Virus record (IMG/VR): IMGVR_UViG_2684623189_000006
Source of the DNA: a virus
Lineage: Duplodnaviria > Heunggongvirae > Uroviricota > Caudoviricetes
Direction: 5' to 3' (one strand)
Length of the DNA stretch: 38,661 nucleotides
The notes under the pieces are model-generated. The model saw nothing but the letters and a program-made list of their open reading frames with translations. It was not told where the DNA came from and ran no database searches. Numbering within the stretch: the stretch's first letter is position 1; each line of letters begins with the position of its first letter. Below, piece after piece: positions 10,097-37,518 of the stretch. Made by a program: the position numbers and the translations under genes.

Positions 10097-10144
10097 AAAT
10101 GACGGTATTTGTCTGCTTGCAGGGATAATCAAAATAATGCTGAT

Positions 10145-10717
10145 TCAGGGGGATTCATTACTCTTATTTGCCGGAAATTTTCTATAAATTGTGGAAACAC
10201 CCACATCAAAAATCAGTGCAATACGCTGTCTTGATTCTCCGGCCTCGAGTAAGCGTCCAATCTGTGCCCACTGTTCGGTGGTCAACTTAGGACGGCGTCC
10301 ACCTACTCTGCCTTTATCACGAGCTGCAGCCAGCCCCGCCCTGGTACGTTCAACTATCAGTTCGCGTTCCATTTCAGCCAGGGCCCCCATGACATGAAAA
10401 AAGAAACGGCCCATTGGGGTGCTGGTATCAATACTGTCAGTCAGGCTTCGGAAATTCACGCCACGCTGACGCAACTCTTCTATCAGCGTAACAAGATGCC
10501 GCATACTGCGCCCCAACCTGTCCAGCTTCCAGACAACCAGAGTGTCTCCAACCGATAGTGTCCTGAGCAGTTTTTTAAGCCCCGGTCTGTCGGGCTTAGT
10601 GCCACTGATTTTGTCCTCAAAAATCCGCTCACATCCCGCGCAGTTCAGTGCATTACGTTGCAAATCTGTGTTCTGGTCATTTGTTGACACGCGTACATAG
10701 CCAATAAGCATGATCAA
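10145..10717 (-). CDS. Serine recombinase, DNA invertase (Cin/Gin/Hin/Pin family)
   Basis: N-terminal GYVRVSTNDQ catalytic serine motif, resolvase-like core and C-terminal HTH (GVSTIYRKF). It sits next to a segment bounded by inverted 26-bp sites. Confidence 0.9.
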   Translation of the reverse strand: MIMLIGYVRVSTNDQNTDLQRNALNCAGCERIFEDKISGTKPDRPGLKKLLRTLSVGDTLVVWKLDRLGRSMRHLVTLIEELRQRGVNFRSLTDSIDTSTPMGRFFFHVMGALAEMERELIVERTRAGLAAARDKGRVGGRRPKLTTEQWAQIGRLLEAGESRQRIALIFDVGVSTIYRKFPANKSNESP

Positions 10718-10766
10718 TCCCCTGAATAAAAACCGGGGATGATGCCAGTTAGTCGTAATCGCTGCA

Positions 10767-10792
10767 TTTTCTTAAACGTTGGTTTAGGAGAA
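10767..10792. repeat. Invertase crossover site (left inverted repeat)
   Basis: ttttcttaaacgttggtttaggagaa is an imperfect inverted copy of the site at 12664-12689 and resembles gix/cix-type sites. Confidence 0.75.
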
Positions 10793-11137
10793 GCGGCGAA
10801 AAGGGATGTGGGCACAGGAGATAATCAGATACCGGATATGGGAGCATTCGCTTCTGGTTCGGGATGGTTCAGGCTACCAGGTGGATATATTGTTCAGTTT
10901 GGCACTTTTTCAGGAAACACGACCCGCTTTATCAGTGGACACTTCCCTATACCATTCCCTAATCAGCCGATGGTTTCAGTCAGTGTTATGTCTGATGCCG
11001 TTCAGTCAGACCCGTCGAATCCTGCCACGCAGGTTTTGTCTGTAAATTTTGAACATATCAGTAATTCAGCGTGGCGTGTGGCAACCAGTGATATCTCACA
11101 GCAATACAGATTCAGTTATATTTCGATAGGACGGTAG
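10793..11137 (+). CDS. Alternative tail-fibre C-terminal cassette (silent orientation, no own start)
   Basis: Open frame running in-frame from the crossover site; it would be fused to the constant part of H after inversion. Confidence 0.6.
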   Translation, partial: AAKRDVGTGDNQIPDMGAFASGSGWFRLPGGYIVQFGTFSGNTTRFISGHFPIPFPNQPMVSVSVMSDAVQSDPSNPATQVLSVNFEHISNSAWRVATSDISQQYRFSYISIGR

Positions 11138-11139
11138 AA

Positions 11140-11580
11140 ATGCAGAAATATATTTTCAGTGCCGATAAAAATGCGTTTTTCCCTGTGGAGCTTAAAATCG
11201 CTTATCAGGAATCCGGCGAATGGCCCGGTGATGGAATCGAAATTGACGACACTGTTGCCGCCGAATTTATGAAGGAAGCACCAGAAGGAAAATACAGAGG
11301 TGTCATCGACGGAATGCCTGCATGGATTGATATTCCACCGCCAACTCATGAGGAACAAATTGCCGCAGCCGAACTGGAAAAGCAGCAATTGATTAATCAG
11401 GTCAACGAATACATAAACAGTAAGCAATGGCCTGGTAAAGCGGCGATTGGTCGCCTGAAAGGTGAGGAACTGGCGCAATATAATTTGTGGCTGGATTATC
11501 TGGACGCACTGGAGCTGGTCGATACTTCCGGTGCGCCAGATATTGAATGGCCTACGCCTCCGGCAGTTCAGGCCAGATGA
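11140..11580 (+). CDS. Tail-fibre assembly protein (for alternative cassette)
   Basis: A 146-aa ORF with a tail-fibre-chaperone-like C-terminus (...DALELVDTSGAPDIEWPTPP), paralogous to the G-like protein on the other strand. Confidence 0.75.
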   Translation: MQKYIFSADKNAFFPVELKIAYQESGEWPGDGIEIDDTVAAEFMKEAPEGKYRGVIDGMPAWIDIPPPTHEEQIAAAELEKQQLINQVNEYINSKQWPGKAAIGRLKGEELAQYNLWLDYLDALELVDTSGAPDIEWPTPPAVQAR

Positions 11581-12145
11581 CGTCCGGCGCTGTGCTCGTA
11601 TCTGTTGCCGTCACCGCGTCAATATAATCCAGCACAGCGTTAAGTCGGGTGTTTTCTGGCTGCGTCAGCTTCCGCCCGGCCTGTAATTTCAGTTGAATCA
11701 GACTGATGGAAGCCATTGCAGCATCAATCAGCGACTGGCGCCGTGCTTCTGCCGCTTCTACTGCGGCGCTATGCTGTGCCTCGGTATCCGTCACCCATTT
11801 CTCACCATCCCATTTATCGTATGGCGTTAACGGTGAAAGCGTGACATAACCGTCTTTGATGGCACCGATATAATCCACTGTAACAGCTGCGCCATTTTCA
11901 GTTGAGTAAACGGTCTCATTGCGATGGTCTTCTTCATGGCTCCATCCCTTACCCGTAAATACTGCCACTTTTCCCGGAATGTTTTCGCTCGGGTCAATAC
12001 CAGTGGAACAGGCGGGCATACTTACTCCAGTATTAATATATTCATCAGACCAGCCGGTATATTCATACGTTACTGCATTATAATAAAAACAACGCATATC
12101 GCCCGGCACTGTAGCCAGCCCATTTTCATCAAAAACAGGTTTCAT
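11552..12145 (-). CDS. G: Tail-fibre assembly protein G
   Basis: A 197-aa ORF immediately after H. Its C-terminus (...DAVTATDTSTAPDVIWPELPEA) is paralogous to the ORF at 11140-11580. Confidence 0.8.
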   Translation of the reverse strand: MKPVFDENGLATVPGDMRCFYYNAVTYEYTGWSDEYINTGVSMPACSTGIDPSENIPGKVAVFTGKGWSHEEDHRNETVYSTENGAAVTVDYIGAIKDGYVTLSPLTPYDKWDGEKWVTDTEAQHSAAVEAAEARRQSLIDAAMASISLIQLKLQAGRKLTQPENTRLNAVLDYIDAVTATDTSTAPDVIWPELPEA

Positions 12146-22164: not shown

Positions 22165-23931
22165 ATGAACACCACACTGACACCCGCAGATCTCGATCCC
22201 CGTCGGCAGGCCATGCTGCTGTACTTTCAGGGATACCGTGTAGCCCGCATTGCTGAAATGCTGGGCGAGAAAGTTGCAACCGTTCACAGCTGGAAAAAAC
22301 GCGACAAGTGGGGTGACTATGGGCCGCTGGATCAGATGCAGCTCACCACCGCCGCACGCTACTGCCAGCTCATTATGAAGGAGCACAAAGAAGGGAAAGA
22401 TTTCAAAGAGATTGACCTGCTGGCGCGCCAGTCGGAGCGCCATGCGCGGATCGGCAAGTTTAACAATGGCGGCAACGAAGCCGACTTAAACCCTAACGTC
22501 GCCAACCGCAACAAAGGCCCGCGCCGTCAGCCGGAAAAGAACGTTTTCACCGATGAACAGATTGAGAAGCTGGAAGAAATCTTCCATTCCTCCATGTTCA
22601 ACTACCAGCGCCACTGGTGGGAAGCCGGAAAAACCAACCGCATCCGCAACCTGCTGAAGTCACGCCAGATCGGCGCGACCTTCTATTTTGCCCGTGAAGC
22701 CCTGATTGACGCCCTGCTAACCGGGCGTAACCAGATTTTCCTTTCCGCCAGCAAGGCTCAGGCCCACGTCTTCAAGCAGTACATCATCGACTTCGCCAAA
22801 GAAGTGGAGGTGGAGCTGAAAGGCGATCCGATGGTGCTTCCTAACGGGGCCACGCTGTACTTCCTCGGCACCAATGCCCGCACGGCCCAGAGTTACCACG
22901 GCAACCTGTATCTGGATGAATATTTCTGGATACCGAAATTCCAGGAGCTGCGCAAAGTGGCTTCCGGTATGGCTATTCACAAAAAATGGCGACAAACCTA
23001 TTTTTCCACGCCATCCAGCCTGACACACAGTGCTTATCCGTTCTGGTCCGGTGCGCTGTTCAACCGAGGGCGCAACAAAGCCGATAAGGTGGACATCGAC
23101 CTGTCCCACAGCAATCTGGCCCCCGGCCTGCTGTGCGCAGACGGGCAGTACCGCCAGATAGTCACTGTGGAAGATGCGGTGCGCGGCGGCTGTAACCTGT
23201 TCGACCTCGACCAGTTGCGCATGGAGTACAGCCCGGACGAATACCAGAACCTGCTGATGTGTGAGTTCGTGGACGATCTCGCGTCCGTGTTCCCGCTCAG
23301 CGAGCTGCAGGCGTGCATGGTGGACAGCTGGGAAGTCTGGACCGACTTTCATGCACTGGCGCTGCGCCCGTTTGGCTGGCGCGAAGTGTGGATCGGTTAT
23401 GACCCGGCAAAAGGTACGCAAAACGGCGACAGCGCCGGATGCGTGGTGGTGGCTCCGCCAGCCGTGCCGGGCGGCAAGTTCCGCATTCTTGAGCGTCACC
23501 AGTGGCGCGGAATGGACTTTCGCGCCCAGGCTGACGCCATCAAAAAACTGACCGAACAGTATAACGTGACCTATATCGGCATCGACTCGACCGGCGTCGG
23601 TCACGGGGTTTACGAGAACGTGAAAGCGTTTTTTCCTGCCGTCCGGGAGTTTGTCTACAACCCCAACGTTAAAAACGCCCTGGTACTCAAGGCCTACGAC
23701 ATTATCAGCCACCGCCGCCTGGAGTTTGACGCCGGGCACACCGACATTGCGCAGTCATTTATGGCAATCCGTCGCGCTACCACTGCCAGTGGCAACCGCC
23801 CGACCTATGAAGCCAGCCGCAGCGAAGAAGCCAGCCATGCCGATCTGGCCTGGGCAACAATGCACGCACTGTTTAACGAACCGCTGCAGGGCGAGTCCGC
23901 CAATACCAGCAATATTGTGGAGATTTTTTGA
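22165..23931 (+). CDS. P: Terminase ATPase (large) subunit P
   Basis: A 588-aa ORF; P2 gpP-like sequence, divergent from O. Confidence 0.9.
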   Translation: MNTTLTPADLDPRRQAMLLYFQGYRVARIAEMLGEKVATVHSWKKRDKWGDYGPLDQMQLTTAARYCQLIMKEHKEGKDFKEIDLLARQSERHARIGKFNNGGNEADLNPNVANRNKGPRRQPEKNVFTDEQIEKLEEIFHSSMFNYQRHWWEAGKTNRIRNLLKSRQIGATFYFAREALIDALLTGRNQIFLSASKAQAHVFKQYIIDFAKEVEVELKGDPMVLPNGATLYFLGTNARTAQSYHGNLYLDEYFWIPKFQELRKVASGMAIHKKWRQTYFSTPSSLTHSAYPFWSGALFNRGRNKADKVDIDLSHSNLAPGLLCADGQYRQIVTVEDAVRGGCNLFDLDQLRMEYSPDEYQNLLMCEFVDDLASVFPLSELQACMVDSWEVWTDFHALALRPFGWREVWIGYDPAKGTQNGDSAGCVVVAPPAVPGGKFRILERHQWRGMDFRAQADAIKKLTEQYNVTYIGIDSTGVGHGVYENVKAFFPAVREFVYNPNVKNALVLKAYDIISHRRLEFDAGHTDIAQSFMAIRRATTASGNRPTYEASRSEEASHADLAWATMHALFNEPLQGESANTSNIVEIF

Positions 23932-24965
23932 TGGGAAAGAGTAAGAAGAACCGCGCTGCGTCGACGAAACAGATCCAGCATAAAAGCCAGACTTCAGCCG
24001 AAGCATTCAGCTTCGGTGATCCCGTTCCTGTTCTGGACCGCCGCGAACTGCTGGACTATGTGGAATGCGTACAGATGGATCGCTGGTATGAGCCACCAGT
24101 GAGTTTCGACGGACTGGCGCGAACCTTCCGCGCCGCCATACATCATAGCTCACCGATTGCAGTGAAGTGCAACATTCTGACCAGCACCTACATCCCTCAC
24201 CCGCTGCTCAGCCAGCAGGCTTTTTCGCGTTTTGTACAGGACTTTCTGGTTTTTGGTAACGCCTACCTGGAGAAACGCACGAACCGCTTCGGTGAAGTTA
24301 TAGCCCTTGAGCCTGCTCTGGCAAAATACACCCGACGCGGGTTAGACCTGGATACCTACTGGTTTGTGCAATACGGTATGACAACCCAGCCGTATCAGTT
24401 CACGAAAGGCAGCATTTTTCATCTGATGGAGCCGGACATCAACCAGGAGATCTACGGCCTGCCCGGTTATCTTTCTGCCATTCCGTCAGCCCTGCTCAAC
24501 GAGTCCGCCACGCTGTTCCGCCGGAAGTATTACATTAACGGCAGCCATGCGGGCTTCATCATGTACATGACCGACGCCGCGCAGAACCAGGAGGATGTGA
24601 ACAACCTCCGCAACGCAATGAAAAGTGCCAAAGGTCCTGGTAACTTCCGTAACCTGTTTATGTACTCGCCTAACGGCAAAAAGGATGGGCTTCAGATTAT
24701 CCCGTTGTCAGAAGTGGCGGCGAAGGATGAGTTCCTGAATATCAAGAACGTGAGCCGGGACGACATGATGGCGGCGCATCGTGTGCCGCCGCAAATGATG
24801 GGTATCATTCCCAACAATACCGGCGGTTTTGGGGATGTGGAAAAGGCCAGTCGCGTCTTCACAAGAAACGAAATAGTACCGTTACAAAAGCGATTGCTGG
24901 AGCTAAATGAATGGCTTGGTGAAGAGGTAGTCCGATTCAATCCATATGAGCTTAATACTGACTAG
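23928..24965 (+). CDS. Q: Portal protein Q
   Basis: A 345-aa ORF overlapping the P stop; P2 gpQ-like. Confidence 0.9.
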   Translation: MMGKSKKNRAASTKQIQHKSQTSAEAFSFGDPVPVLDRRELLDYVECVQMDRWYEPPVSFDGLARTFRAAIHHSSPIAVKCNILTSTYIPHPLLSQQAFSRFVQDFLVFGNAYLEKRTNRFGEVIALEPALAKYTRRGLDLDTYWFVQYGMTTQPYQFTKGSIFHLMEPDINQEIYGLPGYLSAIPSALLNESATLFRRKYYINGSHAGFIMYMTDAAQNQEDVNNLRNAMKSAKGPGNFRNLFMYSPNGKKDGLQIIPLSEVAAKDEFLNIKNVSRDDMMAAHRVPPQMMGIIPNNTGGFGDVEKASRVFTRNEIVPLQKRLLELNEWLGEEVVRFNPYELNTD

Positions 24966-24971
24966 CAAGCA

Positions 24972-24998
24972 TAAAAAAGCCCGGTATTACCGGGCTTC
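24972..24998. terminator. Bidirectional rho-independent terminator
   Basis: Stem gcccggta/taccgggc with an A-run on the plus strand, giving a T-run after the hairpin on the minus strand. Confidence 0.65.
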
Positions 24999-25020
24999 AT
25001 GCAAAACGCATTTCATGGAA

Positions 25021-25200
25021 TTAAGCAGCTTTCTGCTTTTCTTTGAGCTTACCATGCAGCTCATTTCCTTCAAATTTGCAGTCCTGCATCATATGTGGGG
25101 CCGCTTGAAGTAGTTCTTCCATCGCGACGCCCATACGGCTGAAAACATCAGATACTGAGTAATGCTTCTGAGCTTTCTTGTCACTATGCGTCATAGTCAT
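25021..25200 (-). CDS. Small hypothetical protein (59 aa; not in the supplied ORF track)
   Basis: ATG at 25200 preceded by an AAGAGGAAAT Shine-Dalgarno. It translates to MTMTHSDKKAQKHYSVSDVFSRMGVAMEELLQAAPHMMQDCKFEGNELHGKLKEKQKAA and is followed by the terminator. Confidence 0.5.
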   Translation of the reverse strand: MTMTHSDKKAQKHYSVSDVFSRMGVAMEELLQAAPHMMQDCKFEGNELHGKLKEKQKAA

Positions 25201-25279
25201 GATTTCCTCTTAGAGGTCAAGCCTCATCATCCGGTAGTGGATGTTTGGCGCAGCATTGTAGCACTGCGCAAAAATTTAT

Positions 25280-25879
25280 CTACTGTTTCTTAGAAGTAAT
25301 GTAGCGTCTTACTACATCAGTTATTGTAGCAAAAGGTGCCGAAAGCAAGCTTATATCACCTTTAAAACCAAATTTTTTATAGTGGTCAGCAACTTTTTGA
25401 TTCAGGGCTTCAGGGATCCGAATCTCTTGACACCCAACCGCGCTACCAAAAAGATATACCGCCCACAATGTAACCATGAACATGTTGCCGTAAAGAGGGT
25501 GCTCTACGTCATCATCTTTCACAAAAGATTCCACAAAATGGATCTCTATGACTCCAGCGTCCTCGTCAAAGGTGCACATAGCTGCGCCAGAAGGGATATG
25601 CCTAAGTGGCCCCGCAAGGAGCTTCAAACAAAATTCAAACTTATCACTTCGATTGCCAAACCGAGAAAAACCATAATCCCATTCTAGCTGAGCGTATCCT
25701 GTGGTCAGGATCACATAGTCTTCATCACTGATTGGACCAACAGCCAACGGCATCTTCAAAGTATCGAGGAGAAACTGAAGGTTACTTATACTTTGACTGG
25801 CAATCTGCTCTAAGTTCAATTCTCTGTCCTTCATGCTTACGACATTAAAGGCGACTACTTTAATGTCATTTTCGGACAA
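25280..25879 (-). CDS. Hypothetical protein (199 aa), cargo between Q and cos
   Basis: Long ORF with no recognisable family. The start is uncertain: TTG at 25879 or an internal ATG. Confidence 0.5.
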   Translation of the reverse strand: MSENDIKVVAFNVVSMKDRELNLEQIASQSISNLQFLLDTLKMPLAVGPISDEDYVILTTGYAQLEWDYGFSRFGNRSDKFEFCLKLLAGPLRHIPSGAAMCTFDEDAGVIEIHFVESFVKDDDVEHPLYGNMFMVTLWAVYLFGSAVGCQEIRIPEALNQKVADHYKKFGFKGDISLLSAPFATITDVVRRYITSKKQ

Positions 25880-26104
25880 AGACTATAAATCTTTAATGAA
25901 ACAATAGCAGAACCTTTTAAAGGTTTGCTACCTATCACTGCAACTTGTGACAGAACACTAAATCTACAGCCAACTCCGGAACACATTCAACATTTATTTA
26001 AATCCCTTCAAACAAGATTGCACAAAAACGCGCCCTCCCTTTCAGAAGAAAACCATCAGCGGGCCTGAGGCTAAGTGAATTTTACTATTTCAACCCGCGG
26101 CGTG

Positions 26105-26130
26105 CGCTCGTATCCCCGCCACGCCTGCCC
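26105..26130. other. Probable cos site (cohesive-end region)
   Basis: The minus strand reads GGCGTGGCGGGGA..., which matches the first 13 nt of the P2/186 cohesive end as I recall it. Confidence 0.5.
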
Positions 26131-26505
26131 GCTTTATGTAGTGGTTTTCATGCACCTGCATGACATGAGCAAAAGCCCGCCAGTTCTGGCGGGCCTTAAC
26201 AAAAACGAGCCTCAAACGTTCATGCAAACTCATGCAGCATATACATACACTACATCAACAGCATCCATTGCTATCATTTCCAGTTCGCTTCCTACAACAT
26301 CATTGCGAATAGTTATGTTACCAAGCGGCTTTTTCATACCTTTTCGGCATGACACTTCAGACGCACCAATACTGACGTGTAATGCTTCCCCCGCAACGTC
26401 AACCCACTTAATGGTAATTTAATGTAGTTGCATGAGACGAAAAAATCTCCATAGTTGACAGACTCTATGAATGCAGCATCACTAGCAAGCATGAATAAAC
26501 ATGCA

Positions 26506-27210
26506 TCATCTAACAGATACTTTTGCATAAATCAAAGGCCTATCCGAAGAGCCATTTTTACGTACGACCACTCCACTGATATCATGGTTTTTACTAAGAT
26601 CTCGTAATGCGGCGCACAATGCCTTGTTGACATACCCTAGATGATTGTCGTTTTTCGTTACTAATATGGCCAGCGGATCAACAGTATTGGTATCTTCATT
26701 GCGCAATATGACTTCATCACCAATTGATATCTCGTCAAGAGCTAGACGCCCTTCCTTAATCATGTGTCTCGTTCCGGCGACCTCCATGACATAATCAAAA
26801 GGTGGCCGAATAGAAGACAAGTCTGGGACAAAATAAAAACCATCACTAGCCACTTTTCCGCCAGTACAAGCGAGCAAAACGAAGTCATTCTCTCTAAAAT
26901 CAGCAGGAAGACGAAACGTCAGCAAGTAATCGGCAAAATCTTCTCTTTTCCTGGAGGGTAACCTTCTTGAAAAGGTTTGCATAACGTCTTTGCGATGAGT
27001 CGTAACTTTTATGTCAAAAGCAGGAAAACCGTGAAAGCCTTTATCCCCAGCTTTAGCAAAATCTTTGCTATCCGTAAGATAATTAAACTCGTAGCCTTCA
27101 GACTCATCTTGAAGAAGTTCACCAACGACATAGCGAGAGCCGCCGTCGGTCGGTTGCCATGTCAGTAAGAGCCTACTTGGCATGGGAATTTTTTCTATTA
27201 AGATAGTCAT
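26506..27210 (-). CDS. HIRAN-like domain protein (234 aa), third gene of cargo operon
   Basis: The C-terminal region (DPLAILV...LGYVNKALCAALRDL...GVVVRKNG) resembles the HIRAN fold motif. Its ATG overlaps the upstream stop (ATGA) and has an AAGGTG Shine-Dalgarno. Confidence 0.5.
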   Translation of the reverse strand: MTILIEKIPMPSRLLLTWQPTDGGSRYVVGELLQDESEGYEFNYLTDSKDFAKAGDKGFHGFPAFDIKVTTHRKDVMQTFSRRLPSRKREDFADYLLTFRLPADFRENDFVLLACTGGKVASDGFYFVPDLSSIRPPFDYVMEVAGTRHMIKEGRLALDEISIGDEVILRNEDTNTVDPLAILVTKNDNHLGYVNKALCAALRDLSKNHDISGVVVRKNGSSDRPLIYAKVSVR

Positions 27211-28118
27211 GAAGTAACACCTTTAATCAGTTCAATACGCATGTTTGTTACACGAACAATCCATGCAGCACGTTCTCTAGTCAGCGGAACAGGGCAGTTT
27301 ATTTCCGTCAACTCCGCAAAAGTTGAGTCCCAAAAGTCATGGTTCAAACGAGCCAGTCTTTCAGCTACCCGCTGTTTTAATTCTTCTTTTTTATCACAAA
27401 GTTCTTTGATTAACTCTAAATGACCTAATCTCTGATACTCATCTTTGCCCAGAGTTTTACGCAAATGATGCTTTCCCCGGCTAACATGCTCCCTGAGTCT
27501 ATGATCGGTCCAATCAGCAACATGTTCCGGAAAGCGTTCGTAGCATAAGCTCGTACCATTATCGAAAAATGGTGCAAGCTGACACTCGCTGGTTAAAGGG
27601 GAGAAGATAAACCCCCAGTTTTCTTGATGTCTATCTGTATTACCTATTACTGCGTCAAAGAGAGCCATATTCTCCAACCACTCAACATAGTCAACTTTAA
27701 GAGCTTTCGCGATAATCCTCAGCCCTTCAATGGAATGCTTAGCTCCTTTCTCACGATCAAAATTTGGATCTCTTCGAACAAAGTAATCACCAGCGGGAGC
27801 AAATTTCTCATAATCTTTATGATGAAACCACTCAATGAGGGCCCCGCAAAACGTATGCCCCAAATCATTAGTCTTTAACGAAGGAACTGCTTTGGGGACA
27901 TTAAAACCAAGCTGCAATCCAATCCTGTAGGCAACGATCTCACACCAAAATTGATCTGGGTATTTTTTAATACTTCTCTTAAAAAGATACGGCCACGATG
28001 CTTTGATACCATGGGGGGCAACATCAGGGGAAATAACCAATGCCTTAGAGCGAGCACCAACAGGATACTGTGCGAAAACATCTAGCTCAGTCCAATAGGT
28101 TACATCTAAGCAATCCAT
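27207..28118 (-). CDS. HipA-like / PI3K-PI4K-like protein kinase-fold protein (303 aa)
   Basis: Carries the catalytic-loop-like motif DAVIGNTDRHQENWGFIF (D-x-H-x-x-N) typical of HipA-like Ser/Thr kinases. Confidence 0.55.
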   Translation of the reverse strand: MDCLDVTYWTELDVFAQYPVGARSKALVISPDVAPHGIKASWPYLFKRSIKKYPDQFWCEIVAYRIGLQLGFNVPKAVPSLKTNDLGHTFCGALIEWFHHKDYEKFAPAGDYFVRRDPNFDREKGAKHSIEGLRIIAKALKVDYVEWLENMALFDAVIGNTDRHQENWGFIFSPLTSECQLAPFFDNGTSLCYERFPEHVADWTDHRLREHVSRGKHHLRKTLGKDEYQRLGHLELIKELCDKKEELKQRVAERLARLNHDFWDSTFAELTEINCPVPLTRERAAWIVRVTNMRIELIKGVTS

Positions 28119-28133
28119 AGCTAAGTCCTATAT

Positions 28134-28688
28134 TTATTTTTTATTTAAATTCATATAGATGTGAGAAACCTGTGCGATCTGAAATAAAACATCATCGAAT
28201 GCTGTGTGCCTAATGCCAGTGAAATTTTTATCAGCATGAGAAAAAATTCCTTTGCTTTCACCAAGTGCTAAGATGGTTCTAACGTCAAGAGTATCTCTGA
28301 ATGACCATGGGCAATCCAGACCCGCCTGTAACAGGGCATGATGCATGATCGTGCAGTCAAACTCTTTCCCGTTTCCCCACACTTTTACTCGGCCAGTACG
28401 ATTATGAAGAATAAATGCCACAAATTCATTCAGAACCTCTAAAAGGTCCTTAGTGCCATCAAAATTTTCGTTTTTAGCTTCAGTACTTTGATTCATCCAC
28501 CACTTTACAGTAGAGGGGGCAATGGTTCTGCCTGCTTGTTCATGATCAAGCGAAATAACTTGATAGAAACCCGGACCAATCTCGCCAGTCTCCGGCACGA
28601 AAAAAGCCGCACCAACTGAAAGGATATAAGCTGTTTTTTCAACATCCAATGTTTCTATATCTAACATTACATGATTCATAAGAAGCAA
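28134..28688 (-). CDS. DEDDh-type 3'-5' exonuclease (DnaQ-like fold), first gene of cargo operon
   Basis: N-terminal MLDIETLD (Exo I motif) and C-terminal HTAFDDV (H-x4-D, Exo III motif). The start is uncertain: TTG at 28688 or ATG at 28679. Confidence 0.6.
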   Translation of the reverse strand: MLLMNHVMLDIETLDVEKTAYILSVGAAFFVPETGEIGPGFYQVISLDHEQAGRTIAPSTVKWWMNQSTEAKNENFDGTKDLLEVLNEFVAFILHNRTGRVKVWGNGKEFDCTIMHHALLQAGLDCPWSFRDTLDVRTILALGESKGIFSHADKNFTGIRHTAFDDVLFQIAQVSHIYMNLNKK

Positions 28689-29175: not shown

Positions 29176-31590
29176 TTAATACAGGTTCCGCCACTTATCA
29201 TCTTCCTGCAAACGCTGGTTCCGATAGAAGATACGCAGGCCTGCTCCTGACGGAATACTGCCACCGCGAAGGAGTAAATCGACCTCTTTCTCGCTGCCAT
29301 CAAATCCTCTTGACTTCAGTTCATAGACGAGCTGCTGACGCTGATACTCTGTAATTCGCTGTTTGTAGTCTTTACGCCGTTTCGGTTTCACCAGGCGTAA
29401 TCTTGCTGCCAGTTCCTGGCGCTCTTTTTTGCTCATACTATGCAGGTAATCGTGCAACTCCTTGTCATCCATACAGGTAATGTCAGTTCTGGTATCCCCA
29501 TCTGTTGATTTATCTTTCTCCTGTTGGTTCAAATTTTCAGCAAGGGGACAGTTATTGCCACGAGTCCAAGGGGCGCAAGCGCCCTGGTCGGCTGCCGCCT
29601 CCTGAACGTCAACGGCCTTACGAACCATTTTCCACTTCACTGCATGAGTACAAATCTTGCCCTCTGCAATGGGTGACCAGATGCCATAAATACGAATACC
29701 GTGATCGCCATAGGCGGTCGGCTCTTCGTTAATTTCATAAGCTGTTCTGATAAGGTGATATTTGCGGGGAACCAGTACGCCGCCCTGCTTCATAATGTAG
29801 GTGGCAAAACAACCAGCATCAGCAGCAGCCAGGATTGCATCAAGGCGCGGGTTATCCAGTACCGGCGCACCTGCTTTTTTGTCCCCCTGTTGCCTTGCCG
29901 CCTGACCAGCCAGCAATCGCAGTTCACGGTAAGCCTGACGCCCCGGAATGCCAAAGAAGCGGAATTGCTGAACACGATGCAGAGACGCCCAAGCATTAAC
30001 GTATTCAGCATTATCACGCAGGGATTTCCCCGTTTCCTTGCTGATCTCGCCAGCCAGACCACGCCCGTCCATGTTCTTACTGATGTATTTCGCGATGTAG
30101 CTTGTTGGCGTACCTTTGCGCGGGTTAATCAACTCAGACTTAAAGCGCGGCCCAGTGTTATTGCCCAGCTCCTCGCGGTCTTCACGGATGGCAAACTTAC
30201 GCAGTAATGCAGTGATGGCGCGGCGGTCTTTTTTGCGCATAAAACACAACAGGTGCCAGTGAACTGTACCGTCATGATGCGGCTCAGCCACCCGCACGCC
30301 ATACCAGCGCAATCCGGCTTTGTGCATCGCCTTACGAAATGCAGCAAACATGCCGACCAGATAATCACTACTTTGTCTTACCGTCGCATTTGTCCAGGTT
30401 GGGTTGGGCCTGCCGTTATTTAGCGTGGAATGGAAACGTGACGGACAGGTGATGGTGTAGAAAACGGCGCAGTCACCGCGCATTTCCGCGATAAGCTCCA
30501 GGCCTTTAACACAGGCCATCATCTCATTGCGGCGATGCGCAGGGTTGCTGCTGCTGGCGTTTACCACATCCTCCATGTCCAGCGTGTCGCCGTCTTCGTT
30601 CACCAGTTCATGAGAACGAAAAAACTCCAGCGACTTACGGCGCTGCTCACGTTTATGCATCACGGCTTCATAGCTGACATAGGGAGATGCTTTTTTGCTG
30701 ACCAGGCAAACAGCACGCAACTGCTCTTCCCGCCATTCGCAACGCATCTTCCATAATTTCCGGTACCACCAGTCGGCGCACAACATACGCGCCAGCGAAC
30801 CCGGAATGAGTTCATAGGGCACGGGTTTACGGCGGTTTCTTTTCCGGCGGAGTTGATCAAACGCAGGCGGGATGACATCCAGACGCAGGGTTTCCGCTGC
30901 CACCTTTTCCCATGTCTTGCGGATTTCTTCTGGCTTAACGTCATCGGTGACATACAAATCGCCACAAGCTGCATCAAGGCACATGCTCATATGCGCAGCG
31001 ACAAGGGTAGACAAGCGTTTCACCTGATCCTGACTCATTTCAGGCAGGATCAGCAGGCCGTCCAGCCCTTCATGGCTTGCCATAAAGCGAAAAGAAGTGG
31101 ATAGCTGACTGTCGCGTACATGCTCCAGTCGTTCCAGACATGGCTTAATCGTCTCACGCAAATAGCGGGAATAAGCCTTTGGCCTGCCTAGGCTGCTGAA
31201 GTATTCAATACGTTGCAACAGCGGCTTGCTGATATGGGAAGGCTGGGCATTGACGTCCGCCAGAATGACCATATCTGGATTAAAACGCTGCTGCTCATGC
31301 GCCAGCTTTGCCCGGCTAATGAGCTTATCCTGCTCCATTTCGCGTTGGACAGGATCACGGGATTCATTAAAGAAATAACGCTCCCAGACCTGATCACTCA
31401 GTGCCTCGCGGCGCAGTTGTTCCTGCTCGTTATCGGCAGCGTACAGAGTGATCAGGTTTGAAAGCGCAGAAACCGGCGCAACTTCCGCCGGGTCCAGATA
31501 AGGGTTAATAGCCTTTTTCGGGCTGTTCCATGAGAATGCTGCGGCGGCCTCGTTAAAGCCGCTGCAGTTGTTCATATCAGCATGGCTCAT
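29176..31590 (-). CDS. A: Replication initiation protein A (rolling-circle nickase)
   Basis: An 804-aa ORF; P2/186 gpA-like sequence and position. Confidence 0.85.
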
Positions 31591-32443
31591 GCACGCACTC
31601 CGTACACGGCAGAACTATCCACGCCACGCGAAGGCTCAAATCCCACCCAGCAGCGCGCCCAGAAACAGCGATGATTTCTGTTGCAGATTTACTCTCACCA
31701 GCTGCTACGCCGATGCTGCGTTTTGCCTTGATGTAGTGGTGAGTAAAATTGCGATACAGCGAACGGATCAGGGATGTGTCACTGTTAGAAACAATGACCG
31801 GATGTCCTTCTGATGACCGATGTTCAAGAACGGATGCCAGGTGATACTGGTCATCTTCAGTGAAGCCGTCAGTGTGATAACCGGAAAACGTGCCGTCATA
31901 CGGCGGATCGCAATACACCACATCCCCCGCCTTCAACATCGCCAGCGTTTCATCAAAGCTGGCGCAGATAAACGTTGCCCGCTGGGCTTTTTCTGCAAAT
32001 GCGCGAATTTCTTTTTCTGGGAAATACGGATTTTTATAATTACCGTAGGGAATGTTGAAATGCCCGCTCTTGTTATAGCGACATAAACCACGGTAACCGT
32101 GACGATTGAGATACAGGAAATATACCGCTTTCATGAAATCAGTAATTTCATTTGAGTAATTAAACTCCTGCCTTATGTTGTAATAAGCCACCTCCCTGTT
32201 TGCTTCCTTAAATAAAACTCTGGCGCGAGATATAAACGATTCACAATCAGCGGCAACCTTTTTATAGAGGTTGATTAAATCAGGATTAATATCCGCAACC
32301 AGATAGCTTGGATAATCCGTCTCCATCATCACAGCACAGGAACCCGCGAAAGGTTCAACCAGTCGCGGGCCAGCAGGAAGGTGTTTTTTCAGTTCGGACA
32401 TAATTGCGGTTTTATTTCCCGCCCATTTCAGGATGGTGCTCAT
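31577..32443 (-). CDS. DNA adenine methyltransferase (Dam-like, D12 class)
   Basis: N-terminal LKWAGNK and DPPY catalytic motifs. Start taken at the ATG at 32443 (MSTILKW), overlapping the upstream stop (ATGA). The 3' end overlaps the A start by 14 nt. Confidence 0.8.
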
Positions 32444-35812: not shown

Positions 35813-36841
35813 ATGGATTTTATAAAAAAACTCGAATTTGGAAATTATACTCTCCGTTTTGGTGATGATGTTTTGCTAGACTATTATGATGAAATTGTTT
35901 TCCCCTCTTTTTTGGAGATGGCAAACATCCGCAGAATATCTGACAAATCAGAGTTCTTTTTCATTGATACTGAATGCGTCATACTTGACGAAGAAGCAAC
36001 ACCCCCAGTACTCGGAATTAAAGGTCGGATTATTAAGAATACATTATTAACCAGAGAACAAGTATTTGATGGTGCTGATTTGGTTGAAGATCATCAAGAG
36101 CTTGAAACAGCCCCGAGCTCTTTCTTTCTTCTAATATTAAACACTCACAGATTAATTCTTTGCAAGGAAGTTAGTGGTGCTCCCACAATTCAAAACTTTC
36201 AGTCAACAAGTCAGTGTTTCTTAAACATAGAATATGAAAAATACATATCTCATTTATACGAAACCGCACAAGAAGAACGCAAAGAAAACCCTGACTTACC
36301 TCGAGTCACTAAAAAAAGCTTACGGAACGAAATCAAACGCCCGAAGCTAAGAATAACGCCGTTAACTGACAAACAAAGCCTAGAGCAATTTATTGATAAT
36401 TTTAATAAAATCCAAAATGTCTCAGTAAAACTTCTCCCTACAAATCAAGAAGAAATTGATAACGACGAATTTTGGGAGTCACTTGAAAGTGCCGGAGACG
36501 AAATGGGAAGTATTTCTACATCTATTCGCTTTTCAAACACCGATTCAGGCTTGAATCATGGTGCTGTTTTAGAACAACTCACATCAGCAACCAGATTGGC
36601 TAATTCAGGAATAAATATTAAAGGATATGATGACAATGGTGATATAATCAAAGGTAGCAATGATGACTTTGTTTTGTTAAGTGAGATGAATGAATTATCA
36701 AAGGATACGGTAGTAGCTGCAAATGAAAGTTATGAGCGGTATGAAAATCTTGTAGAAGAAGGTAAGATATCTCTACCCCGTTCTCTTTCACAAAAGACGA
36801 TTAGAATTATTAGCAATATATATGAAAGGTTTGGTCGATGA
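35813..36841 (+). CDS. Hypothetical protein (342 aa), AT-rich cargo gene 1 between cI and int
   Basis: Low-GC ORF with a GAGG Shine-Dalgarno and no recognisable family. Its stop overlaps the next start (ATGA). Confidence 0.6.
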   Translation: MDFIKKLEFGNYTLRFGDDVLLDYYDEIVFPSFLEMANIRRISDKSEFFFIDTECVILDEEATPPVLGIKGRIIKNTLLTREQVFDGADLVEDHQELETAPSSFFLLILNTHRLILCKEVSGAPTIQNFQSTSQCFLNIEYEKYISHLYETAQEERKENPDLPRVTKKSLRNEIKRPKLRITPLTDKQSLEQFIDNFNKIQNVSVKLLPTNQEEIDNDEFWESLESAGDEMGSISTSIRFSNTDSGLNHGAVLEQLTSATRLANSGINIKGYDDNGDIIKGSNDDFVLLSEMNELSKDTVVAANESYERYENLVEEGKISLPRSLSQKTIRIISNIYERFGR

Positions 36842-37518
36842 TAAATAAAATAGATGCTAAAGAAATAACCAAAGAGAAAAACCTTTGGGATGTTTACTTG
36901 CTCTGCAAACGGATTACTATTAGTACATTCCATATTTGTATTTTGCTCACAGCATCTATTTTTTTATTAACAAACTCTTTTTTTATTGAGAAGGATATGT
37001 CTCATTTAGTATCTGACATTAGAAACTGGGCTTTGATTGGTTTTAACTTTGCAGTGACAACCTTAGGTTTTCTCATTGCTGGTTTCACAATATTTGCAAC
37101 ACTATCCAAACCCGAGATGTTTCTTCAGATGATGTCAATACAACATAAAAAAACACAGATGCCCACGTTAAAATATAACTTTATGGCATTTATGAAAGTT
37201 TTCATCTCATTTATTACGTTTACTTTCATTTATCTAATAATAATTCTCTTTTGTCAAAAAGATGGAATAATTGGCAATATAATTGATTTATTTCCATATT
37301 CAAAATCGATAAAAGAATTAATTATTAAATTTGGATACTGTGTTATAGGGACTAGCCTTATTTACTTAGTGTTAGTAGTAAAGACATTTATTTTTAATAT
37401 CTACGCTATCATAATGAATAATATTCGTTGGGAGTTATACATTAAAAGAAAAGAACAAAGACTTTCCAGTAACAAAGAGACAATCAATAAAAACATAGAT
37501 GTAACTAAAATGCATTAA
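36838..37518 (+). CDS. Hypothetical integral membrane protein (226 aa, about 4 TM helices), AT-rich cargo gene 2
   Basis: Four long hydrophobic segments; translationally coupled to the upstream gene. Confidence 0.6.
   Translation: MINKIDAKEITKEKNLWDVYLLCKRITISTFHICILLTASIFLLTNSFFIEKDMSHLVSDIRNWALIGFNFAVTTLGFLIAGFTIFATLSKPEMFLQMMSIQHKKTQMPTLKYNFMAFMKVFISFITFTFIYLIIILFCQKDGIIGNIIDLFPYSKSIKELIIKFGYCVIGTSLIYLVLVVKTFIFNIYAIIMNNIRWELYIKRKEQRLSSNKETINKNIDVTKMH

What the first reader, a model, noticed from the sequence alone, without database searches (positions are those of the whole stretch)
25021..25879. Unexpected cargo between portal gene Q and cos: a 199-aa ORF plus a 59-aa ORF ending in a strong terminator
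In P2 the portal gene ends close to cos, as I recall. Here about 1.1 kb separates Q from the cos-like motif. It holds two minus-strand ORFs convergent with Q: an unassignable 199-aa protein and a small 59-aa basic protein with a strong Shine-Dalgarno that is missing from the supplied ORF track. A strong terminator follows them. A large-plus-small gene pair at a phage variable site could be a toxin-antitoxin pair or an anti-defence module.
Basis: partly seen in the sequence, partly recalled or inferred. Interest (0 to 1): 0.5.

Follow-up and report, generated by a model that had tools for sequence, protein, structure and literature searches.

The report
Phage GNAT enzyme with small partner
The stretch between the portal gene and cos of this P2-family prophage holds a real, self-contained two-gene insert (an uncharacterised acetyltransferase-fold protein plus a 59-residue partner that looks built for rapid degradation); it moves between unrelated phages and is probably a toxin-antitoxin-like module, but it lies in an already described cargo hotspot and its function is untested.

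Summary
Both minus-strand ORFs, the Shine-Dalgarno, the terminator, the cos core (26107-26125) and the ~1.1 kb Q-cos gap are all present. Corrections: the large gene is probably 179 aa (TTG 25819), not 199. It is assignable, as a confident GNAT acetyltransferase fold that no Pfam, NCBIfam or PADLOC model detects. RefSeq already annotates the 59-aa ORF.

The two genes form a ~1.12 kb insert (24938-26056) with candidate promoters and its own terminator. The large-then-small pair recurs in 97 of 97 loci fetched through the large protein. Slots include other P2-likes next to portal, lambdoid int-xis and antiterminator-lysis intervals, downstream of a CI-like repressor, and inside baseplate genes.

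All 47 distinct small proteins end in [K/R/Q]AA, resembling ClpX degrons. AlphaFold gives one helix with disordered tails. The intergenic region carries a conserved -10 box.

No sampled locus has the GNAT gene without the small gene. About 205 E. coli genomes have the small gene behind a Panacea-antitoxin module instead.

Best reading (about 0.4): a toxin-first, labile-antitoxin, RnlAB-like module, probably for phage exclusion. It is not a canonical GNAT/DUF1778 toxin. The slot lies in the P2 gpA-gpQ hotspot of Rousset et al. 2022, whose supplement lists this arrangement as 'hypothetical + hypothetical'.

The parts
24938..26056 (.). Extent of the inserted cassette relative to a cassette-less P2-family relative
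   Evidence: BLASTN against E. coli O177:H21 prophage L106: homology stops at window 24937 (inside the 3' end of Q) and resumes at 26057. GC is 0.41-0.43 here against 0.54-0.60 in the structural genes.
24976..24998 (-). Intrinsic terminator of the cassette: GAAGCCCGG-TAA-TACCGGGCTTT followed by TTTTTTAT. It abuts the Q stop codon.
   Evidence: Terminator scan. An equivalent GC hairpin plus T-run follows the small gene in every cassette, including those in lambdoid phages, so it travels with the cassette. In P2 and in L106 the terminator at this position is oriented for Q instead.
25021..25200 (-). Small gene, 59 aa (WP_021523861). One predicted helix (residues 16-39) with Lys-rich disordered tails. 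The C-terminus is ...KQKAA.
   Evidence: ORF. phrog_2741 E 1.6e-30. RefSeq CDS. AlphaFold2 pLDDT 66.8 with a single helix. All 47 distinct relatives end in AA. No Pfam, PADLOC or NCBIfam family reaches its curated threshold.
25205..25210 (-). Shine-Dalgarno AGAGGA of the small gene
   Evidence: Read directly from the sequence. GAGG or GGAG is kept before the start codon in all relatives.
25255..25282 (-). Candidate promoter for the small gene alone. The -35 is TAGATA (25277-25282, overlapping the stop codon of the large gene). Spacer 16. TG at 25262-25263. The -10 is TACAAT (25255-25260). The -10 lies in the loop of the inverted repeat GCGCAG (25264-25269) / CTGCGC (25248-25253).
   Evidence: Promoter scan hit. 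A TAnnAT box sits at the start of the intergenic region in every divergent group. CAGTGnTAnAAT is invariant in the P2-group alignment, and one relative carries the compensatory GCGCAA/TTGCGC. Expression was not tested.
25280..25819 (-). Large gene, a GNAT-fold protein of 179 aa from the conserved TTG start.
25841..25867 (-).
   Evidence: Read directly from the sequence. The block CCGAAAATGACATTAAAGT is conserved at nucleotide level with indels in relatives. Its role is unknown.
25961..25990 (-). Candidate promoter for the large gene: TTGAAT (25985-25990), 18 nt spacer, TAGATT (25961-25966)
   Evidence: Only 8 of 12 consensus matches, and not called by the scan. It is conserved in P2-group relatives as TTGA.T ... 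TGTAGATTTTGT. Weak evidence.
26107..26125 (-). cos core (cohesive-end sequence), phage backbone
   Evidence: GGCGTGGCGGGGATACGAG against P2 cosL GGCGAGGCGGGGAAAGCAC. The surrounding 26057-26254 is conserved in Fels-2-like phages and about 1,200 E. coli genomes.
23928..24965 (+). Portal gene Q (context; convergent with the cassette)
   Evidence: ORF. RefSeq 'phage portal protein'.

Best explanation
The interval holds a mobile two-gene moron. I read it as a toxin-first, toxin-antitoxin-like module carried by the prophage.

Proposed mechanism:
1. The upstream gene encodes a divergent, acidic GNAT-fold enzyme, presumably acyl-CoA dependent. This is the effector.
2. The downstream gene encodes a 59-residue single-helix peptide. 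It has its own constitutive promoter and a C-terminal ...[K/R]x[K/R/Q]AA tail that resembles ClpX degrons. This is the short-lived neutraliser.
3. In a healthy lysogen, continuous synthesis of the peptide keeps the enzyme silent.
4. When an infecting phage, or another stress, blocks host transcription or translation, the peptide is degraded and the enzyme is released. It then modifies its target and the infection aborts.

The target is more likely a protein or small molecule than tRNA, because the enzyme family is acidic.

Shown: the two genes are real. The large protein has a GNAT fold. The catalytic-type residues are conserved. Linkage of the two genes is strict across phage types. The cassette brings its own terminator, and promoter-like boxes are conserved. 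The AA C-terminus is invariant.

Inferred: physical interaction, toxicity, lability, activation by infection, and an anti-phage role.
For: 1. Linkage. In 97 of 97 loci fetched through the large protein, the small gene follows on the same strand at 77-196 nt, and both genes are intact. Divergence of the two proteins is correlated (Spearman 0.84 over 47 distinct pairs). A distant chromosomal subfamily in Klebsiella and Pantoea (20-24% identity) also has a 57-58 aa ORF 91-96 nt downstream.

2. Asymmetry of the kind expected for toxin versus antitoxin. No locus has the GNAT gene without the small gene: 0 of 97, and 0 of 60 sampled E. coli hits. About 205 of 562 E. coli genomes, and 18 of 79 IMG/VR loci, have the small gene without the GNAT gene. 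Natural GNAT disruptions also exist: frameshifted P0028 and P0029, and a match lacking the first 139 nt of the GNAT gene with the small gene present in O111:H8 (H82).

3. The replacement for the GNAT gene is a Panacea (PF13274) antitoxin gene plus a 128-aa ORF, so the position hosts a TA-type module.

5. The small protein is one helix with disordered Lys-rich tails and no DNA-binding fold. All 47 variants end in AA preceded by K, R or Q. Compare the ClpX degrons ssrA ...ALAA, RseA ...GVAA and MuA RRKKAI (PMC8138137).

6. The -10 box between the two genes is conserved in every group. It would give the small gene extra, independent transcription.

7. Precedent. [quoted passage not shown]

8. Contexts are moron or defence slots: the P2 cos hotspot, downstream of a CI-like repressor, between int and xis, between antiterminator Q and the holin, and inside baseplate genes.
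Against: - There is no direct evidence of toxicity, binding, lability or anti-phage activity.
- No PADLOC, Pfam or NCBIfam defence or TA model matches.
- The canonical acetyl-CoA loop Q/RxxGxG/A is degenerate here (HPLYGNM). Its Gly is kept in only 40 of 55 family members, so the cofactor is not established.
- The enzyme is acidic (pI 5.06; family median 4.75-5.06) and the peptide basic. This is the reverse of the common acidic-antitoxin, basic-toxin pattern, and it argues against tRNA as substrate.
- The peptide has no DNA-binding domain, so classical type II autoregulation is not expected.
- The module is almost absent from plasmids (5 of 72,556), unlike typical addiction modules.
- Retention of the small gene behind the PanA module could mean it works independently of the GNAT protein.
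- The partner in the distant subfamily is not detectably homologous and lacks the AA end.
Confidence: 0.4

Rival explanations
1. The GNAT protein is a non-toxic modifying enzyme with a small regulatory, specificity or substrate subunit. It acetylates a host or phage protein, or a small molecule, to the phage's benefit. The benefit could be lysogenic conversion, resistance to an aminoacyl-nucleotide type antibiotic, or anti-defence as AcrVA5 does to Cas12a. The basic Lys-rich peptide would be its adaptor or even its substrate.
For: - GNAT fold with conserved catalytic-type residues.
- An acidic enzyme paired with a Lys-rich basic partner.
- The family is essentially restricted to phages and rare on plasmids.
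- Some copies lie in the antiterminator Q to lysis slot, which I expect to be transcribed late.
- A GNAT anti-CRISPR exists: AcrVA5 (10.1101/2021.11.16.468554).
- There is no hit to any TA or defence model.
Against: - It does not explain why the GNAT gene never occurs without the peptide while the peptide occurs without the GNAT gene.
- It does not explain the invariant degron-like AA end.
- It does not explain the separate promoter for the peptide.
- The gene that replaces the GNAT gene is a Panacea antitoxin module.
- One copy sits directly downstream of a CI-like repressor, which suggests expression in the lysogen rather than early in infection.
Confidence: 0.28
2. Reversed polarity. The small basic peptide is the harmful component and the GNAT protein neutralises it, by binding or by acetylating its lysines. 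This would resemble the TopAI(YjhX)-YjhQ pair of E. coli, or the enzyme-antitoxin (type VII) systems. In the variant loci, the promiscuous Panacea antitoxin would take over that role.
For: - In about 205 E. coli genomes the GNAT gene is replaced precisely by a gene encoding an antitoxin-type domain (Panacea), while the small gene is retained.
- Replacement of one antitoxin by another, DUF1778 by DUF4065 (Panacea), is documented for GNAT toxin systems (PMC9177977).
- The acidic-large, basic-small charge pattern.
- YjhQ is a GNAT-type antitoxin (from my own memory, not checked here).
Against: - A toxin with its own extra promoter and a degradation tag is atypical.
- PanA is followed at 30 nt by its own likely partner, the 128-aa ORF, so it need not act on the small protein.
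- The peptide is a single soluble helix with no evident toxic fold.
Confidence: 0.1
3. The two genes are functionally independent neighbours. The small gene with its promoter and terminator would be a separate unit, or merely a conserved flank used for cargo exchange.
For: - The small gene has its own promoter-like box and terminator.
- It persists intact without the GNAT gene at the dusA-side end of mEp460-like prophages, with the junction about 10 nt before its ATG.
Against: - The pair travels together into at least five different slots in unrelated phage backbones.
- Cassette-less relatives lack both genes.
- The two proteins co-diverge.
- Only two architectures were found for the small gene among 79 loci.
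Confidence: 0.1

Closest known systems
GNAT/DUF1778 (RHH) type II toxin-antitoxin systems: AtaRT, TacAT, KacAT, ItaRT
   Same: A two-gene module with a GNAT-fold protein of about 160-180 aa. AtaT, KacT and TacT3 are the top or near-top structural matches. An invariant Tyr in helix alpha-4 lies at a similar sequence position to the Tyr mutated in the AtaT Y144F and KacT Y145F structures.
   Different: There is no sequence-level relationship: no PDB hit at E<=10 and no Pfam GNAT hit. The partner is a 59-aa single helix without an RHH/DUF1778 or DUF4065 domain. It lies downstream rather than upstream. The protein is acidic (pI about 5), so aminoacyl-tRNA is an unlikely substrate. Structural scores are no better than for generic GNATs (TM 0.5-0.6).
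RnlAB / LsoAB toxin-antitoxin anti-phage systems
   Same: The logic I propose is the same. The toxin gene comes first. The small downstream antitoxin is intrinsically unstable (Lon- and ClpX-dependent). Release follows phage-induced shut-off (PMC11869752). That rnlB has an internal promoter is my recollection, not checked here.
   Different: There is no homology. The RnlA toxin is an RNase, not a GNAT protein. Lability, toxicity and defence are only inferred for the present pair.
Cargo of the P2 cos-proximal hotspot (old and tin in P2; systems validated by Rousset et al. 2022)
   Same: It lies in the gpA-gpQ interval that the paper defines as the hotspot. The arrangement is listed in their supplementary table. 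It is low in GC and varies between otherwise similar prophages.
   Different: It sits on the Q side of cos, whereas old and tin lie on the A side. The authors listed it as 'hypothetical + hypothetical', and I found no sign that they characterised it. The same cassette also occurs outside P2-like phages.
Morons of lambdoid phages (promoter-gene-terminator inserts)
   Same: A self-contained unit with promoter-like boxes and its own terminator. Its composition differs from the backbone. It is inserted between backbone genes at several sites, including the interval between antiterminator Q and the lysis genes. That stx genes occupy that interval in Stx phages is my recollection, not checked here.
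   Different: 'Moron' describes an architecture, not a function. Expression in the lysogen has not been shown here.
AcrVA5, a GNAT anti-CRISPR that acetylates Cas12a
   Same: A GNAT-fold enzyme carried by a mobile element and acting on a protein target.
   Different: AcrVA5 does not appear among the 50 matches listed in the PDB search. As far as I recall it has no small partner gene. Nothing here indicates anti-defence activity.

Membership tests
GNAT (Gcn5-related N-acetyltransferase) superfamily | Mixed alpha/beta fold with topology beta1-alpha1-alpha2-beta2-beta3-beta4-alpha3-beta5-alpha4-beta6 | tested here: met
GNAT (Gcn5-related N-acetyltransferase) superfamily | Recognised by sequence profiles (Pfam Acetyltransf_1 and related models) | tested here: not met
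   No Pfam family at E<=1 for the window protein. Only 1 of 55 family members touches PF00583, at E 0.006. No NCBIfam hit.
GNAT (Gcn5-related N-acetyltransferase) superfamily | Acetyl-CoA pyrophosphate-binding loop Q/R-x-x-G-x-G/A between beta4 and alpha3 | tested here: inconclusive
   The loop at the right position reads H-P-L-Y-G-N-M. The Gly is kept in 40 of 55 members and the last position is Met rather than Gly or Ala. Cofactor binding cannot be decided from sequence.
GNAT (Gcn5-related N-acetyltransferase) superfamily | Catalytic general acid or base (Tyr in alpha4, Glu in beta4) | tested here: met
   Y152 is invariant in 55 of 55 sequences. E102 is Glu in 48 of 55 and Gln in the other 7. 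Their positions in alpha4 and beta4 come from the model. Catalysis itself was not tested.
GNAT/DUF1778 type II toxin-antitoxin family (AtaRT, TacAT, KacAT) | Adjacent antitoxin with a DUF1778 (RHH) domain, or a DUF4065 (Panacea) domain in one clade (PMC9177977) | tested here: not met
   The small partner has no Pfam family and is a single helix. No other small ORF with such a domain flanks the gene. Definition taken.
GNAT/DUF1778 type II toxin-antitoxin family (AtaRT, TacAT, KacAT) | Sequence membership of the 'true TA clade' of GNAT toxins | tested here: not met
   The family profile finds no PDB chain at E<=10, although AtaT, KacT and TacT structures are in the PDB.
GNAT/DUF1778 type II toxin-antitoxin family (AtaRT, TacAT, KacAT) | Acetylates aminoacyl-tRNA and arrests growth | not testable with these tools
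   The only indirect point is that the protein is acidic (pI 5.06, net charge -7; family median 4.75-5.06), which does not favour RNA binding.
P2 cos-proximal cargo hotspot (Rousset et al. 2022) | Variable genes located between replication gene A and portal gene Q, next to cos | tested here: met
   The gene order in the window and its RefSeq twin is Q, cassette, cos, HIRAN, HipA-like, exonuclease, then gpA. Definition. The arrangement is listed in their supplement. It is absent from a close relative.
P2 cos-proximal cargo hotspot (Rousset et al. 2022) | Confers resistance to phages | not testable with these tools
   No PADLOC model matches either protein. I found no experimental record.
Toxin-antitoxin module (generic) | Toxin never found without its antitoxin, while orphan antitoxins are tolerated | tested here: met
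   GNAT gene without the small gene: 0 of 97 loci, and 0 of 60 sampled E. coli hits. Small gene without the GNAT gene: 18 of 79 IMG/VR loci and about 205 of 562 E. coli genomes. This is consistent with the definition but does not prove it.
Toxin-antitoxin module (generic) | Proteolytically unstable antitoxin | tested here: inconclusive
   All 47 variants have a disordered C-terminal tail ending in [K/R/Q]AA. This resembles the ClpX degrons listed in PMC8138137.
Toxin-antitoxin module (generic) | Toxicity of one partner that is neutralised by the other, with a physical complex | not testable with these tools
Moron (autonomous promoter-gene-terminator insert in a phage) | Own terminator and promoter, atypical composition, inserted between backbone genes | tested here: met
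   Terminator. Conserved -10 boxes. GC 0.41-0.43. Insertion boundaries. The same unit occurs in at least five slots. Promoter activity was not measured.

The most novel reading that the evidence does not exclude
A phage-restricted family of sequence-orphan, acidic GNAT-fold effectors, each held in check by a degron-tagged single-helix peptide, is a new toxin-antitoxin or abortive-infection family. Its toxin would acetylate a protein or metabolite rather than aminoacyl-tRNA. Its effector part can be swapped for a Panacea-type module upstream of the retained small gene.
Probability: 0.25. Interest if true: 0.65.

Novelty: new variant of a known kind. Interest (0 to 1): 0.45.

Why it matters
If the toxin-antitoxin or defence reading is right, it adds a compact (~0.9 kb) and widely shuffled module to the prophage defence repertoire. 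A relative of this cassette is present in about 7% of complete E. coli genomes, including O157:H7 strains.

It would also extend GNAT toxins beyond the DUF1778-linked clade that acetylates tRNA, to a lineage that current Pfam, PADLOC and NCBIfam models miss.

The invariant C-terminal AA tail gives a directly testable handle on how such a module could sense infection. If the reading is wrong, the pair remains a well-delimited, conserved phage cargo of unknown function in a hotspot that has already yielded validated systems.

For annotation, the work corrects the start of the large gene. It also shows that the Q side of cos is a cargo slot of its own.

Tried and rejected
The BFVD search added only generic GNATs.
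- The PDB sequence search with the family profile gave nothing at E<=10.
- Rfam on 24900-26300 gave only sub-threshold chance hits.
- RNAalifold on the intergenic region of 12 P2-group cassettes gave a weak structure (-4 kcal/mol, 7 pairs, one compensatory). I therefore do not claim an RNA element. The hairpin in front of the Shine-Dalgarno looked covarying by eye across groups, but RNAalifold on the P2-group sequences did not predict it.
- The C-terminal extension of a longer family member (P0085) looked to me like a fused small protein. The small-protein HMM does not detect it, so I dropped the idea.
- The broad alignment A3 was too divergent for locus scanning.
- A literature search by accession and PHROG number found nothing. 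Searches for GNAT-based phage defence found only the canonical tRNA-acetylating toxins.
- I considered that the terminator is simply tQ. I rejected this because its T-run faces the cassette and the same terminator accompanies the cassette in lambdoid phages.
Full report
**What the window is.** The window is a 186/Fels-2-like P2-family prophage of E. coli. The region tested (24900-26200) is 100% identical to the chromosome of strain FDAARGOS_1283, and the RefSeq gene map of that prophage matches the window's ORFs. The terminase gene P (22165-23931) and portal gene Q (23928-24965) lie on the plus strand. Downstream of Q the GC content falls from 0.54-0.60 to 0.41-0.46 until about 29500.

**Checking the observation.**
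- The 59-aa ORF is at 25021-25200(-), with AGAGGA four bases before its ATG.
- The 199-aa ORF is at 25280-25879(-).
- A strong terminator lies on the minus strand at 24998-24976: 10 pairs, then TTTTTTAT.
- A cos core, GGCGTGGCGGGGATACGAG, is at 26107-26125(-). It matches 12 of the first 13 bases of P2 cosL and lies in a block conserved in Fels-2, SopEPhi, RE2010 and about 1,200 E. coli genomes.
- The Q-cos distance is 1,141 nt here and 167 nt in P2.

Three details need correction.
- The N-terminal 20 codons of the 199-aa reading overlap a nucleotide-conserved leader that carries frame-breaking indels in relatives. The conserved start is TTG 25819 behind AAGGA, giving 179 aa. PGAP chose ATG 25834, giving 184 aa.
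- The 59-aa ORF is annotated in RefSeq as WP_021523861.
- This copy is only marginally basic, with pI 7.9.

**Extent of the insert.** Against a cassette-less relative (E. coli O177:H21), homology ends at window 24937 and resumes at 26057. About 1.12 kb here therefore replaces about 150 nt there. In that relative, and in P2, the terminator after Q is oriented for Q. Here the T-run faces the two minus-strand genes.

**The large protein.** No Pfam, NCBIfam or PADLOC model matches it. PHROGs places it in phrog_4350, function unknown. An AlphaFold2 model built on 29 homologues is confident (pLDDT 88.5, pTM 0.86) and has the canonical GNAT topology.
- Foldseek against the PDB returns GNAT acetyltransferases. 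AtaT, KacT and TacT3 rank among the best matches, but their scores (TM 0.5-0.6) are no better than those of generic GNATs.
- Viral structures give the same picture.

The family is small: 75 representatives at E<=1e-3 among 1.8 billion proteins. The members that carry organism names are Enterobacterales. Across 55 members down to 17% identity, W52 and Y152 are invariant, E102 is kept in 48 of 55, and F157 in 52 of 55. Y152 sits in helix alpha-4 and E102 in strand beta-4, the usual places for the GNAT general acid and base. The acetyl-CoA loop is degenerate (HPLYGNM). The family is acidic, with median pI about 5, which argues against a tRNA substrate.

**The small protein.** It belongs to phrog_2741, function unknown. 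AlphaFold2 gives one helix (residues 16-39) with disordered Lys-rich tails and no DNA-binding fold. All 47 distinct relatives end in AA preceded by K, R or Q: KQKAA, RRRKAA, HRQAA, SKKAA. Known C-terminal ClpX degrons are ssrA ...ALAA, RseA ...GVAA and MuA RRKKAI (PMC8138137). Calling this tail a degron is my inference.

**Linkage and mobility.** I fetched loci through the large protein from genomes, IMG/VR and assemblies. In 97 of 97, the small gene follows on the same strand after 77-196 nt, and both genes are intact. Divergence of the two proteins is correlated, with Spearman 0.84. The slots are:
- next to portal, convergent, in P2-like prophages of E. coli, Pectobacterium, Pantoea and Mixta, with portal identity 62-100%;
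- between int and xis in mEp460-like lambdoids;
- directly after an S24 CI-like repressor in Serratia symbiotica;
- between antiterminator Q and the holin or lysozyme genes;
- inside baseplate genes.

A distant subfamily (20-24% identity) sits as a two-gene island in Klebsiella and Pantoea chromosomes. It again has a 57-58 aa ORF about 90 nt downstream, but that partner is not detectably homologous and lacks the AA end.

Every cassette ends in its own GC hairpin plus T-run. The intergenic region always begins with a TAnnAT box. In the window this is TG-n-TACAAT at 25255-25263, with the -35 overlapping the large gene's stop codon. This suggests a separate promoter for the small gene. A weaker candidate promoter (TTGAAT, 18 nt, TAGATT; 25961-25990) and a 10-bp inverted repeat (25841-25867) lie upstream of the large gene.

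**The reverse test.** Loci fetched through the small protein show only two architectures: GNAT-small (61 loci) and Panacea antitoxin + 128-aa ORF + small (18 loci). In complete E. coli genomes, the mEp460-type cassette is complete in 358 of 5,426, including O157:H7. About 205 further genomes have only the small gene. Of those, the two loci I inspected have the PanA (PF13274) gene plus the 128-aa ORF in place of the GNAT gene and the intergenic region. The junction is about 10 nt before the small ATG. In an evenly spaced sample of 60 hits, none had the GNAT gene alone. The variant in this window is rare, present in 10 of 5,426 genomes. The family is almost absent from plasmids, at 5 of 72,556.

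**Interpretation.** Taken together, the pattern best fits a toxin-first toxin-antitoxin-like module:
- an enzyme that never occurs without its small partner;
- a partner that can occur alone;
- a degron-like tail;
- extra transcription of the partner from its own promoter;
- replacement of the enzyme gene by a bona fide TA-type module.

The closest working analogue is RnlAB. [quoted passage not shown]

The pair is not a member of the canonical GNAT/DUF1778 family, which is defined by its RHH or DUF4065 antitoxin and forms one clade (PMC9177977). The partner domain, the gene order and the sequence relationship were all tested and are not met.

Three rivals remain.
- A non-toxic modifying enzyme with a regulatory or substrate subunit, including an anti-defence role like AcrVA5.
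- Reversed polarity, with the GNAT protein as neutraliser.
- Two independent neighbours.

None can be excluded without experiments. I put the TA-like reading at about 0.4.

**Relation to what is known.** Rousset et al. 2022 define the P2 hotspot as the whole gpA-gpQ interval, with cos inside it. [quoted passage not shown] It also lists the same small-gene accession alongside other cargo. Fels-2 carries an unrelated 565-aa gene in the same Q-cos slot. Cargo at this position is therefore not surprising to a specialist.

What appears to be undescribed is the cassette itself. I found no literature on it, and no profile library names it.

**Verdict.** This is a real, conserved and mobile two-gene module of unknown function in a known hotspot. 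I class it as a new variant of a known kind, of moderate interest.

Noticed in passing
window 26506-28667 (HIRAN 26506-27210, HipA-like 27207-28118, exonuclease about 28134-28667, all minus strand): On the other side of cos lies a three-gene cargo. It comprises a HIRAN-domain protein, a HipA_C-like kinase (together PADLOC candidate system PDC-M03, E 4e-36 each) and an Rv2179c-like 3'-5' exonuclease (PF16473, labelled DUF5051 in Rousset's table). Rousset et al. cloned an 'Exonuclease + HipA' P2 system (pFR108). The main text does not mention it by those terms.
   Followed up: partly
L107 1983-3184 (E. coli O121:H19) and L186 1486-2687 (APEC BEN5202): At the dusA-side end of mEp460-like prophages, about 205 complete E. 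coli genomes have the small gene without the GNAT gene. In the two loci inspected, a Panacea (PF13274) antitoxin gene plus a 128-aa ORF of unknown family takes its place, followed by the retained 57-aa small gene. Neither protein matches PADLOC. This could be an uncharacterised PanAT pair, or a three-gene unit.
   Followed up: partly
window 35813-37518 (+), between the CI repressor and integrase genes: Two overlapping genes of 342 and 226 aa lie in a stretch of very low GC (0.28-0.37). They have no Pfam or PADLOC match. This is another cargo slot of the prophage. [quoted passage not shown]
   Followed up: partly
window 25201-25279 and the equivalent intergenic regions of L001-L096: Directly before the Shine-Dalgarno of the small gene there is a short hairpin. 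By eye its arms differ between groups but stay complementary: GAGG/CCTC here, GAGAC/GTCTC in the mEp460 group, GCCTG/CAGGC in L041. The mEp460-type spacer (about 180-196 nt) holds several palindromes. RNAalifold on the P2 group alone gave only weak support.
   Followed up: partly
window about 31587-32443 (-): RefSeq annotates the prophage DNA adenine methylase gene as frameshifted (a pseudogene) in the chromosome that matches the tested region of the window at 100% identity.
   Followed up: no
window about 10132-11592: A recombinase-family (invertase-type) gene sits next to partial tail-fibre and tail-fibre-assembly fragments in opposite orientation. This looks like an invertible tail-fibre segment that would switch host range.
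   Followed up: no
L105 1235-2932 (Fels-2 STM2723.1): Fels-2 carries a single 565-aa hypothetical gene in the same Q-cos slot. The Q side of cos is therefore a recurrent cargo site distinct from the A side, where old and tin lie in P2.
   Followed up: no
L097 5001-5837 (Klebsiella) and L101 5001-5836 (Pantoea): A distant branch of the same GNAT-fold family (20-24% identity) occurs as a stand-alone two-gene island between housekeeping genes. It is widespread in Klebsiella (listed in 390 blocks of the collection index) and has its own unrelated 57-58 aa downstream partner.
   Followed up: partly
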